Shown here piece after piece: positions 6,001 through 9,000 of a stretch of 15,696 nucleotides of DNA. The position numbers were made by a program. The stretch comes from a virus (Duplodnaviria > Heunggongvirae > Uroviricota > Caudoviricetes). Numbering within the stretch: the first letter of the stretch is position 1; every line of letters begins with the position of its first letter. The stretch is from the IMG/VR virus record IMGVR_UViG_2531839178_000023; one strand, 5' to 3'.

Positions 6001-9000
6001 AGTGGTTATTTCTCATACTTCATTGCTGGTGCGCTTCTGTCCATAGCTAGGGATACAAAAAGTATTATAACATACACCTTGTTGTTAATGATGTTTTATT
6101 GTAGCATTACTTTTTCTATTAATCATGCGAACATTGTCAACTTAAAAGAAAACATCGATTATAACACAACCGTTACTGGGGTACTTATTAGTCTATTCTT
6201 TTTGTTTTTCTTATTTCAAAACACTAAATATGCACAAAATCTAAGCCTCCCTTTATCAACGATTTTAGGAGCCATTGTTTACCCATTGTATCTTTTGCAT
6301 GCGCATATAGGGTACATGTTACTCGATAAGTTCGCTAATGGATCAAATAGAACATTATTAACTGTGATTATAATTTTCTTTGCTATCACTATCGCCTATT
6401 TAACTCATGTTATTATAGAGAAAAAATGCAGCCCAACTTGGAAATATTTATTTGGCTTATTTGTAGCAAAACCGATAGAAGGAATAGAAAAAAGATTATA
6501 CAAAAAAACTGAAGAATCATAGTAAAAGACCACCTCCTTAGGAGGTGGTCTTTTAATTAATCAGATATCCTTGCTCCGATTATAACCTGATGTTGTGAAA
6601 CCGGTACGCTATCAATCGCCTTATTTCTGTTAACTGTCTTGACTACGATAGTAACAGGAGATACACCAGGGCCATCAACATACTTCAGAATTTTAGTTGT
6701 ATCCCCCCCAGTTTGAGAGATACTAATGGGGTGAGACGTCGTAGTTTTAACAATAGATGGTGTATTAACTATGGCATTTCCTGTAATTTCAACGTTTAAC
6801 CGACCAAACACATGTCTTATTAATGATTCTGAAGAGCCTGATATTGTGCCGCTATATATATATTTAAGTCACCATAAACTTCTATATACCCGTTTGCAGT
6901 AGTATTTATGGATCCTTTTACCACATTAAGTCTAAAACTTTTATAAGCTCTAGGTATACCCGTAATTGTGGTGGTAGAACATATATTAATATCAACACAT
7001 GCTGAACTAGATGCAATACCAATACGTGATACTATATTTAGTACTTTGATTGCCTGTTCTATACTTGCAAGAGGCCTAGAACTATTGAGACCAGTATTTT
7101 CATCACTACCAGTTGTTGGGTTAACGTAGATATTTCTAACTATTGGAAGCCCAAGATATCTTATTGCAGCCCAGTTTCCAATTTTGCCAACGTCTGCTGC
7201 AGCAGCAGCTATGTAATCGATGTGAAGAAATGCTGATGTTATTGAACCACCAACCAGGCCATTTGGAAAACCGCCCGTCGCAGGCATGCCCCTTAACTGT
7301 ACCGTTCTGTCAGAACCATCCTGATTCATTGCGTAAATAGAATAACTCAGGCATGTATTGTTTAACTGCGACCAGTTATCAACATCAACGTATGAGTTAC
7401 TCACTACAATGTTGTGCTGCATAATCATATTTCCGCCAACATCTTCTACATGCGGCTTTCTGATCGTAACATCGGAAGAATCAATGGCAAACGCCTGGCG
7501 CCACCACTCAACAACCGGTTCATCGATAACAAAATCTCGGGTTGTAATAATGGTTATGCCAGTGTTCATATCCTTACCTGCACCGGTAAATGATGGTGTG
7601 GAATAAACCATATTGAGGTTTGAAGAATTCGATCCCATCCTTGCAATATAGGCATTACCAAGACGACCACCAGCATTAGCCAGATAGAAGACAATACCCT
7701 GACGCTTCGCCAGAACTTTCGGGGATCGCAGATCAAATCCCCATGACCATCGTATAAATACACCCACCAGGGGGCATGAAACATCATTACCGCCATACTC
7801 CGTAATACCAATGCTGGCTTTCGAGCCTTTGAATCCGGGGCTAAGCGCAAAGTTTAATCCGACTTTAACGTTTGGCAGCGTACCAACCGACAAGTCAAAA
7901 ACAAAACCATCTGACAGTGTTATGTAGCCATTGACATCAGTTATGTCATTATCTGTTGTGCCAATCAGTGACCCTGTCTTCCTGACGTATGCGCCACCTG
8001 ACAAAACAAACACAACCGGCTCAGTGGCTGCTGTGTTTAAATTTGCTGGTGCATAGTAAAAACCTACTGGCATTTGTCGATTGAAATAGGTCTGCGCACC
8101 AACCTGATCGTAATGTACATGATGCATAAGCAGGAGTGGAACGGTCGACTCTACACGCGAAGTAAACAGAACTGTCACTGGACGCAGACTGTATTTATAC
8201 GCCTCAAGCGCTGCTACACTTGGATATGATGATGAAAGTCCGGCAGTAATATATGAGTTTACACCTTTAATCTTTTCAGTACCTGTACCGCCAAAATCAT
8301 CAACATAAAGCTCATTGATAAGCTTCGCATACAGTCCATTTGCTAACTGAACTGGAGTTGAGTTAGAAATAATTTCCCACTTTGATCCCCCAGTACTCAC
8401 CTTGTTACCAACTCCTAATGTCGTGTCTGCAATCATTTCCGCAATTGTGTTATACCTAGGAATATACCTCTCTCCTCCAGGCGAGGTTATTTTTTGCCCT
8501 AATTGGTCAGGGTCGTACTTCAACACATTCGGAAAATAAAACTGCTGCGCTCCATATGCATCATAAACGGCCATAGAATGGCCTTGCACAGTTACAAATT
8601 TGGCAATCTGACCGTTATATACCGGATATCCAGCGGCGTTAATGACGATTGGCTGTGCCACCTGAACATGTTTACCATCTTCTCGTTCCAGATATACAGG
8701 GATCTGGTTTTCTGGATTTACCGGGTCAGTGTCAATTTTTCCGATATATATTTTTCCATTGGCTACGGCTTTAAAAGAACGCGCCATAGTGAAGAGTTGC
8801 GAAGGCATACTCACTACAACATTGGCTGTAATGTCCGTCATTTAATTTTCTCCAGACGTAGCAATGCGGAACAAGATGCAACTTGCCCAGCATTGCACTA
8901 ATGTCAGTTATGATCTGTTAATTATGAGATGAGTCTATGCAAAGAGATCTATTGAATATTGCGTTCTATATATTTGGTTTTTGCACGTTCCTGGTGTTTG

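What the first reader, a model, noticed from the sequence alone, without database searches (positions are those of the whole stretch)
6557..8841. Chimeric tailspike: P22-type head-binding domain on an unrecognised receptor-binding domain, possibly frameshifted at a (TA)5 tract
The N-terminal ~115 residues are near-identical in pattern to P22 gp9, but the rest is unrelated to the P22 sequence I recall, so the receptor specificity is different and unknown. A second open frame runs from just past the annotated stop to the terminator, and the overlap of the two frames contains (TA)5 at 6853-6862. The true product may therefore be about 760 aa, split by a dinucleotide-repeat slip.
Basis: partly seen in the sequence, partly recalled or inferred. 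Interest (0 to 1): 0.6.

Follow-up and report, generated by a model that had tools for sequence, protein, structure and literature searches.

The report
Frameshifted tailspike pseudogene, Shigella prophage remnant

Summary
There is a 673-aa ORF (6820-8841, minus strand) and an 84-aa ORF in the -1/+2 frame (6557-6811). The two frames overlap over 6823-6868, and the window's only (TA)5 lies at 6853-6862. The frameshift reading is also confirmed. E. coli carries intact 762-aa alleles that differ from the repaired window sequence by as few as 2 residues. Their DNA has (TA)7, and the only indel across the gene is 4 bp in that tract. Six assemblies carry the identical (TA)5 sequence, so this is not a sequencing error. 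Shigella dysenteriae gene fragments carry an in-frame version equivalent to (TA)4. The receptor-binding domain is not unknown. It belongs to the phage CBA120 TSP1 (PDB 4OJ5) family, a double beta-helix, and all five proposed catalytic residues are conserved. The deletion removes 99 residues, about two thirds of the distal beta-helix D4. The gene lies in an IS-riddled prophage remnant at intS that has no head, portal or terminase genes and carries further slippage frameshifts nearby. Verdict: a recent pseudogene made by replication slippage. There is no support for programmed frameshifting or phase variation. Interest is low.

The parts
6557..8841 (-). Whole tailspike pseudogene. It would encode 762 aa if the tract were (TA)7.
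   Evidence: The repaired translation differs from E. coli P0128 (762 aa) at 2 residues. tblastn with the CUPS04 homologue spans both frames.
6820..8841 (-). Annotated 673-aa ORF (WP_005000378.1, Shigella boydii): 663 native residues plus 10 out-of-frame residues ([10 protein letters not shown]), then a stop.
8494..8841 (-). P22-type head-binding (particle-attachment) domain, residues 1-116.
   Evidence: Pfam PF09008, E 1e-64. PDB 1LKT, 2XC1, 7SG7 and 8TVR match residues 1-118. DNA similarity to P22-like phages ends at about codon 116.
7204..8493 (-). Neck plus main beta-helix (TSP1 D3 equivalent, about residues 117-546). It holds the conserved putative catalytic residues W367 (7741-7743), Y398 (7648-7650), E445 (7507-7509), H464 (7450-7452) and E466 (7444-7446).
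   Evidence: Profile match to 4OJ5, E 4e-140. Residue-level alignment. Coordinates. Domain limits taken from PMC3966878. AF2 model pLDDT is about 90.
6994..7203 (-). D3-D4 linker region (about residues 547-616), including the [12 protein letters not shown] motif.
   Evidence: Aligned to TSP1 residues 563-623. The model shows helices at 594-603 and 608-612. The boundaries are approximate.
6853..6993 (-). First third of the distal beta-helix D4 (about residues 617-663), still in the ORF frame.
6853..6862 (.). (TA)5 tract, the site of the 4-bp deletion. The tract is (TA)7 in the intact E. coli alleles. S. dysenteriae fragments have an in-frame version equivalent to (TA)4.
6557..6852 (-). Out-of-frame remainder of D4 (native residues about 665-762, plus the stop at 6557-6559). 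It holds the family-invariant KYVDG...RN..IDSVPVS..Q motifs.
   Evidence: Second tblastn segment, 42% identity, E 2e-17. Invariant columns. Aligned to TSP1 residues 673-760.
6523..6555 (.). Hairpin terminator shared by the convergent tailspike and acyltransferase genes.
   Evidence: Free energy -24.4 kcal/mol; no shuffle out of 200 folded as well.

Best explanation
The locus is the tailspike gene of a P22/Sf6-like prophage that now survives in Shigella boydii only as an IS-riddled remnant at the intS site. The protein is modular. A P22-type head-binding domain (residues 1-116) is joined to a receptor-binding module of the phage CBA120 TSP1 family. That module has a main beta-helix D3 carrying an inter-subunit Glu-Glu/His site, a bent linker, and a second beta-helix D4. 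By homology it would be a trimeric O-antigen-binding, and probably O-antigen-cleaving, spike. Replication slippage removed two units of a (TA)7 tract inside D4, leaving (TA)5. Translation therefore leaves the native frame after residue 663 and stops 10 codons later, losing 99 residues, about 68% of D4. The result is a recent, stably inherited pseudogene, one of several slippage and IS lesions in this remnant. It is not a regulated or recoded gene. Shown here: the tract alleles, the single-frame homologues, the fold family and the remnant context. Inferred: slippage as the mechanism, loss of trimer assembly or function in the truncated protein, and glycosidase activity.
For: Intact alleles:
- E. 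coli proteins P0124, P0125, P0128 and P0134 are 762 aa and read GDLNIYIYSGT. P0128 differs from the (TA)7-repaired window translation at only 2 residues.
- The E. coli locus L008 has (TA)7. It is 99.4% identical over 1581 bp, with a single 4-bp gap in the tract.

More distant homologues:
- CUPS04 (761 aa), P0001 (762 aa), P0003-P0010, a Morganella protein (759 aa) and four of the five viral contigs (the fifth match, L012, stops at query residue 629) run through in one frame.
- The alignment has invariant residues in the part that the window encodes out of frame.

Not a sequencing error:
- Six assemblies, one NCBI and five from separate sequencing runs, share the identical 2361 bp with (TA)5.

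Stable inheritance:
- The (TA)5 carriers fall into at least 4 haplotypes. These differ by A-run indels and by presence or absence of IS630, yet all keep (TA)5 and the same IS boundary near 10005-10007.

Decay context:
- The window has intS and gtrA, a gtrB split by an IS630-like element, and a frameshifted DUF6056 glucosyltransferase.
- A gp16-like gene is cut by an IS3-family element, followed by IS30 and IS2. There are no head, portal or terminase genes.
- Against E. coli L008, all three indels in 5.08 kb lie in simple repeats.

Fold:
- 4OJ5 matches by profile at E 4e-140, covering chain residues 176-768.
- Foldseek ranks it as the top hit, TM 0.65.
- The break lies between beta strands 659-663 and 667-669 of D4.
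- The TSP1 candidate catalytic residues W380, Y411, E456, H481 and E483 are conserved (PMC3966878).
Against: No experiment shows that the 663-residue truncated protein is non-functional. It retains the head-binding domain, the whole D3 helix and all the putative catalytic residues, so it might still fold. The DNA of the S. dysenteriae allele could not be fetched, so '(TA)4' is inferred from the protein sequence. Three tract lengths in three lineages show that the tract is unusually mutable, which a pure 'random decay' reading does not need. The direction of change, (TA)7 as ancestral, rests on gapless alignment with TSP1 and the other family members, not on a rooted phylogeny.
Confidence: 0.9

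Rival explanations
1. The (TA)n tract is a contingency locus. Reversible slipped-strand mispairing would switch the tailspike ON and OFF, or between length variants, as phase variation.
For: Three tract states are seen in near-identical genes: (TA)7 in E. coli, (TA)5 in S. boydii, and a (TA)4-equivalent in S. dysenteriae. A (TA)5 is very unlikely by chance. P22-like prophages do carry a repeat-controlled phase-variable gene next to the tailspike, neuO of CUS-3 (my own knowledge; CUS-3 appears).
Against: Each lineage seems fixed. All (TA)5 carriers across at least 4 haplotypes keep 5 units. All eight S. dysenteriae fragments have the same state, and all the E. coli alleles seen have 7. This sample is biased, because the loci were retrieved by exact protein match. 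In Shigella the prophage has no virion genes, so switching would have no effect. Other family members have no repeat at this position; they read NVQVYAG, NVTFASG or NVKCTNG. Neighbouring genes carry similar one-off slippage lesions.
Confidence: 0.05
2. The 673-aa ORF is the complete, functional protein as annotated in RefSeq, and the downstream frame is meaningless.
For: It is annotated as an intact 'phage head-binding domain-containing protein' (WP_005000378.1). It keeps the head-binding domain, D3 and the catalytic candidates.
Against: No homologue ends there. The downstream frame is 42% identical to CUPS04 (E 2e-17) and essentially identical to the E. coli 762-aa alleles, and it holds family-invariant residues. 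The terminator follows the downstream frame, not the ORF's stop. The cut falls mid-way through the D4 beta-helix.
Confidence: 0.03
3. Programmed -1/+2 ribosomal frameshifting, or transcriptional slippage at the TA tract, restores the full-length protein.
For: The two frames overlap over 46 nt that contain a repetitive tract.
Against: Near-identical intact alleles are encoded in one frame, so no recoding is needed. There is no X_XXY_YYZ heptamer in TTA AAT ATA TAT ATA GCG (read from the sequence). The 3' flank folds less well than shuffled sequence (z +2.5). Known transcriptional slippage needs long homopolymer runs (my own knowledge).
Confidence: 0.01
4. The frameshift is a sequencing or assembly error in the TA tract.
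For: Dinucleotide repeats can be miscalled on some sequencing platforms.
Against: The 2361 bp including (TA)5 is identical in one NCBI assembly and five independent run assemblies (ERR6005799, DRR015929, ERR200314, SRR059778, SRR8186692). The 84-aa ORF was seen on 30 contigs.
Confidence: 0.01

Closest known systems
Phage CBA120 tailspike TSP1 (ORF210; PDB 4OJ5 and related entries), specific for Salmonella O:21
   Same: The receptor-binding part has the same architecture across chain residues 176-768: D3 beta-helix, bent linker and D4 beta-helix (profile E 4e-140; Foldseek top hit). The proposed catalytic residues W380, Y411, E456, H481 and E483 are all conserved (PMC3966878). The (TA)7 allele aligns without a gap across the tract position.
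   Different: Sequence identity is only about 19-20%, so the O-antigen specificity is almost certainly different and remains unknown. The N-terminal anchor is the P22 head-binding domain, not the TSP1 D1/D2 anchor of Ackermannviridae. The window copy lacks two thirds of D4.
Tailspikes of P22-like phages (P22 gp9, Sf6 gp14, HK620 gp9, CUS-3 endosialidase)
   Same: [quoted passage not shown] The gene sits in the same place, at the end of the virion operon, next to O-antigen-modification genes and the integrase, as in Sf6-type prophages. The module boundary after YDPDQ is the same.
   Different: The receptor-binding module is unrelated in sequence to the P22, Sf6 and HK620 modules. Beyond the head-binding domain only generic beta-helix fold similarity remains.
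Intact E. coli prophage alleles of the same gene (for example EPX1318001.1 = P0128, 762 aa; CUPS04 WP_416045423.1, 761 aa)
   Same: P0128 differs at 2 of 762 residues from the repaired window gene. The neighbouring acyltransferase and gtr genes are the same in L008.
   Different: They have (TA)7 and a single reading frame. Their gtrB and the DUF6056 glucosyltransferase are intact, at 306 and 546 aa.
Gene decay in Shigella by IS insertion and simple-repeat frameshifts
   Same: The window holds four IS elements and at least three slippage indels within 5 kb, relative to a 99.7%-identical E. coli prophage.
   Different: Nothing differs; this is a typical example.

Membership tests
P22-like tailspike (head-binding domain family, Pfam PF09008) | An N-terminal domain of about 110 residues matching Head_binding over its full length. 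| tested here: met
   Residues 1-113 match profile positions 1-113 of 113, E 1e-64. PDB 1LKT, 2XC1 and 7SG7 match at E 1e-45 to 1e-61.
P22-like tailspike (head-binding domain family, Pfam PF09008) | Located in a P22/Sf6-like prophage, downstream of the ejection-protein genes. | tested here: met
   A gp16-like gene (PF26808) lies immediately upstream. intS, gtr and acyltransferase genes lie downstream.
CBA120 TSP1-type receptor-binding module | Sequence homology across D3, the linker and D4. | tested here: met
   phmmer E 1e-20. Profile E 4e-140 over chain residues 176-768. In the window, the last 99 residues are present only out of frame.
CBA120 TSP1-type receptor-binding module | A bent double right-handed beta-helix fold. 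| tested here: met
   The AF2 model of homologue P0001 (81% identical) has pLDDT near 90 over residues 130-730. 4OJ5 is the best PDB match, TM 0.65. The window protein itself was not modelled.
CBA120 TSP1-type receptor-binding module | The adjacent Glu-Glu pair with His, Tyr and Trp at the subunit interface (E456, E483, H481, Y411, W380). | tested here: met
   These align to E445, E466, H464, Y398 and W367, which are invariant in 35 family members.
CBA120 TSP1-type receptor-binding module | Homotrimer formation and O-antigen binding or cleavage. | not testable with these tools
   This needs protein biochemistry. Catalysis is only proposed even for TSP1 itself (PMC3966878).
Phase-variable (contingency) gene | Repeat-tract length varies within a lineage or population at high frequency. 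| tested here: not met
   All (TA)5 carriers across at least 4 haplotypes are identical at the tract. The S. dysenteriae and E. coli sets are each uniform. The sampling is biased and no read-level data were available.
Programmed ribosomal frameshift gene | A slippery heptamer with a 3' stimulatory structure, and homologues that share the two-frame layout. | tested here: not met
   There is no heptamer and no 3' structure (z +2.5). Homologues are single-frame.

The most novel reading that the evidence does not exclude
In the live E. coli prophages that carry the intact allele, the (TA)7 tract inside the distal beta-helix might act as a hypermutable switch. It would generate OFF variants, such as (TA)5, and in-frame two-residue length variants, such as (TA)4, of the tailspike. 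That would be a simple-repeat contingency site in a phage receptor-binding protein. The Shigella alleles would then be frozen snapshots of its states.
Probability: 0.06. Interest if true: 0.5.

Novelty: new member of a known kind. Interest (0 to 1): 0.2.

Why it matters
The main value is as an annotation correction. WP_005000378.1 is listed as an intact 673-aa protein, but it is the 5' part of a frameshifted 762-aa tailspike gene, and the 84-aa ORF is its out-of-frame 3' end. The locus also shows that the CBA120 TSP1-type double beta-helix module, solved only from an Ackermannviridae phage, circulates on P22-type anchors in E. coli and Shigella prophages as well as on several other anchors. 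This is one more example of receptor-binding-module exchange (PMC10408124). The three tract states make a tidy natural example of dinucleotide slippage. None of this changes current understanding.

Tried and rejected
- **Tract alleles in public collections.** I scanned for any tract-length allele with the pattern GAAGTTTATGGTGACTTAAA-N{4,24}-GCGGCACAATATCAGGCTCTTC. It found nothing in viral contigs, genome contigs or metagenome contigs.
- **Complete E. coli genomes.** No complete genome matches the D4 region at the DNA level, so tract lengths could not be surveyed there.
- **Species-representative genomes.** The family scan with alignment A1 found no relative.
- Encoding contigs for the 762-aa E. 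coli protein (P0128) and for the S. dysenteriae fragment (P0132) could not be looked up. The S. dysenteriae DNA was therefore never seen.
- **Acyltransferase look-up.** Looking up the neighbouring acyltransferase to reach other lineages returned only the S. boydii-type contigs.
- **Literature.** Searches for the assembly accession, the WGS prefix and the protein accession found nothing relevant. The strain and serotype are therefore not named.
- **Terminator scan.** The consensus scan missed the hairpin at 6523-6555, because the T-run is part of the stem. Direct folding showed the hairpin.
- **Rejected readings.** Programmed frameshifting, sequencing error and a complete 673-aa protein were all rejected.

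Full report
**1. The observation**

The minus strand carries a 673-aa ORF (6820-8841) that ends ...QALQNH. An 84-aa ORF (6557-6811) follows in the frame offset by +2/-1. The downstream frame is open from 6868, so the two frames overlap over 6823-6868. TATATATATA at 6853-6862 lies inside that overlap. It is the only (TA)5 in the window, and shuffles give 0.01 per window. Residues 1-113 match Pfam Head_binding end to end (E 1e-64) and match the solved P22 and Sf6 head-binding domains. A strong hairpin at 6523-6555 (-24.4 kcal/mol, z -5.9) follows the stop of the downstream frame. No such signal follows the stop of the 673-aa ORF.

**2. Source and context**

The 673-aa protein is WP_005000378.1 / EIQ28170.1 of Shigella boydii. 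The window is part of contig AKNA01000064.1 of GCA_000268145.1.

The neighbourhood is a wreck of a P22/Sf6-like prophage at the intS site:
- intS (1-1158) and gtrA.
- gtrB, split by an IS630-like element.
- A DUF6056 serotype-specific glucosyltransferase, split into two ORFs.
- An intact family-3 acyltransferase (5449-6522), convergent with the tailspike.
- The tailspike gene.
- A gp16-like ejection-protein gene, cut by an IS3-family element.
- IS30, ssb, IS2 and ead genes.

There are no head, portal or terminase genes, so no virion can be made.

**3. The frameshift is real and its cause is identified**

E. coli CUPS04 encodes a 761-aa homologue. It aligns to the ORF frame for residues 1-664 (74% identity) and to the downstream frame for residues 664-760 (42% identity, E 2e-17). 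The junction falls at window 6847-6853, the edge of the TA tract.

It also found a cluster of near-identical E. coli alleles of 762 aa that read ...[14 protein letters not shown].... One of them (P0128) differs from the window sequence repaired to (TA)7 at only 2 of 762 residues.

The DNA of one E. coli allele (L008, GCA_043242395.1) has (TA)7. It is 99.4% identical to the window over 1581 bp, with a single gap: 4 bp in the tract. The window allele is therefore an intact gene minus two TA units.

After residue 663 the window reads 10 foreign residues and stops. It loses 99 native residues.

**4. Not an error, and not switching**

One NCBI assembly and five assemblies of independent sequencing runs share the identical 2361 bp with (TA)5. 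These carriers fall into at least four haplotypes. The haplotypes differ by 1-bp indels in A-runs (4218/4221, 5349, 6061) and by the presence of IS630 in gtrB. All of them keep (TA)5, and all break at the same IS boundary near 10005-10007. The lesion is therefore old enough to be shared and has been stably inherited.

Eight Shigella dysenteriae protein fragments read NIYSGT, the in-frame equivalent of (TA)4. Five of them are identical to the window repaired to (TA)4. Their DNA could not be fetched.

So the tract has slipped at least twice in different lineages. That marks a mutational hot spot, but there is no sign of within-lineage variation.

Against E. coli L008, all three indels in 5.08 kb (4221, 5349, 6853) lie in simple repeats. 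This is the usual signature of decay.

**5. What the protein is**

The region after residue 116 is not unknown.
- By sequence it matches PDB 4OJ5, tailspike TSP1 (ORF210) of phage CBA120 (phmmer E 1e-20).
- A 35-member family profile matches at E 4e-140 over chain residues 176-768.
- An AlphaFold model of the 81%-identical homologue P0001 has pLDDT around 90 over residues 130-730. Its best PDB match is 4OJ5 (TM 0.65).

According to the structure paper (PMC3966878), TSP1 has a D3 beta-helix (166-562), a linker that bends the axis (563-623), and a second beta-helix D4 (624-769, seven turns). Its proposed inter-subunit catalytic site comprises E456, E483, H481, Y411 and W380. All five align to identical residues in the window ORF: E445, E466, H464, Y398 and W367. 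All five are invariant in the family.

The frameshift falls at the equivalent of about TSP1 residue 671. In the model this lies between strands 659-663 and 667-669. About two thirds of D4 is lost.

TSP1 itself recognises Salmonella O:21 (PMC8432352). At roughly 20% identity the present module must have another, unknown, specificity.

The same module occurs on other anchors:
- The TSP1-type N-terminal domain (PF18668).
- A T7-tail-fibre N-terminus.
- A tail-collar domain in Aeromonas.
- The 150-kb phage KKP 3954.

This is the well-known modular exchange of receptor-binding domains (PMC10408124).

**6. Rivals**

- **Programmed frameshifting.** There is no slippery heptamer. The 3' flank folds worse than shuffled sequence (z +2.5). 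Near-identical intact alleles need no recoding.
- **Phase variation.** Three tract states exist, but each lineage is uniform, and the Shigella remnant could not use a tailspike anyway. This reading is retained at about 5%.
- **A complete 673-aa protein.** This is contradicted by every homologue, by conserved residues in the downstream frame and by the position of the terminator.
- **Sequencing error.** This is excluded by the six identical assemblies.

**7. Verdict**

The feature is a recently inactivated tailspike gene in a defective prophage. It is a new member of known kinds: P22-type anchor, TSP1-type module, and Shigella gene decay by repeat slippage. Its practical value is as an annotation correction and as a clean natural example of dinucleotide slippage. 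Interest is low, about 0.2.

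Noticed in passing
window 1292-5355: The O-antigen glucosylation (gtr) cluster of the prophage is decayed. gtrA is intact. gtrB is split by an IS630-like element (transposase ORFs around 1805-2899). The DUF6056 / GT_STM0557_N serotype-specific glucosyltransferase is split into 3740-4228 and 4390-5355 by a 1-bp deletion in an A-run at 4221. E. coli L008 and the related run assemblies L004 and L005 have it intact at 546 aa, and L003 and L004 lack the IS630 insertion.
   Followed up: partly
window 5449-6522 (+): An intact 357-aa family-3 acyltransferase (PF01757, Oac-like) lies convergent with the tailspike. 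It is the only accessory gene of this remnant still intact in this strain. In two related assemblies (L003, L004) it is split into 143 + 206 aa by a 1-bp change in an A-run at 6061. Whether it acetylates the O-antigen in S. boydii was not examined.
   Followed up: partly
window 9006-12107 and 13571-14844: The gp16-like ejection-protein gene (9006-9992) is cut by an IS3-family element (9986-10825). IS30 (10956-12107) and IS2 (13571-14844) follow. The early-region genes ssb, DUF2737 and ead sit directly beyond them, so the whole head and packaging region has been deleted. All short-read contigs of relatives end at about 10005-10007, the IS edge.
   Followed up: partly
Shigella dysenteriae protein fragments P0122-P0133 (no locus held): S. 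dysenteriae keeps only the last 121-153 codons or so of the same tailspike gene, always at a contig end, and with a two-residue in-frame shortening (NIYSGT) at the TA tract. An IS insertion probably removed or separated the 5' 80% of the gene, but the DNA could not be retrieved.
   Followed up: partly
window 7837-8494 versus H27, H28 and L001: The first 170 residues or so of the receptor-binding module (residues 117 to about 285) are far more conserved among E. coli alleles than the rest. DNA identity is 91% to strains T2 and GPEC87-32-644 up to query position 1004 only, and CUPS04 is nearly identical up to about residue 265 and then 40-75%. This suggests a second recombination boundary inside the beta-helix module.
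   Followed up: no
L008 5619-10957: In E. coli GCA_043242395.1 the same tailspike, acyltransferase and gtr block lies next to dacD-, sbmC- and yeeA-like genes. No integrase gene is called beside gtrA. The related prophage therefore seems to sit at a different chromosomal site from the intS site used in S. boydii.
   Followed up: no
window 6557-7203: The linker and D4-encoding 3' part of the gene has a lower G+C content (37%) than the rest of the gene (44%) and the window as a whole (45%). This is consistent with a separately acquired sub-module, and the low G+C is also what makes a TA-rich tract possible.
   Followed up: no
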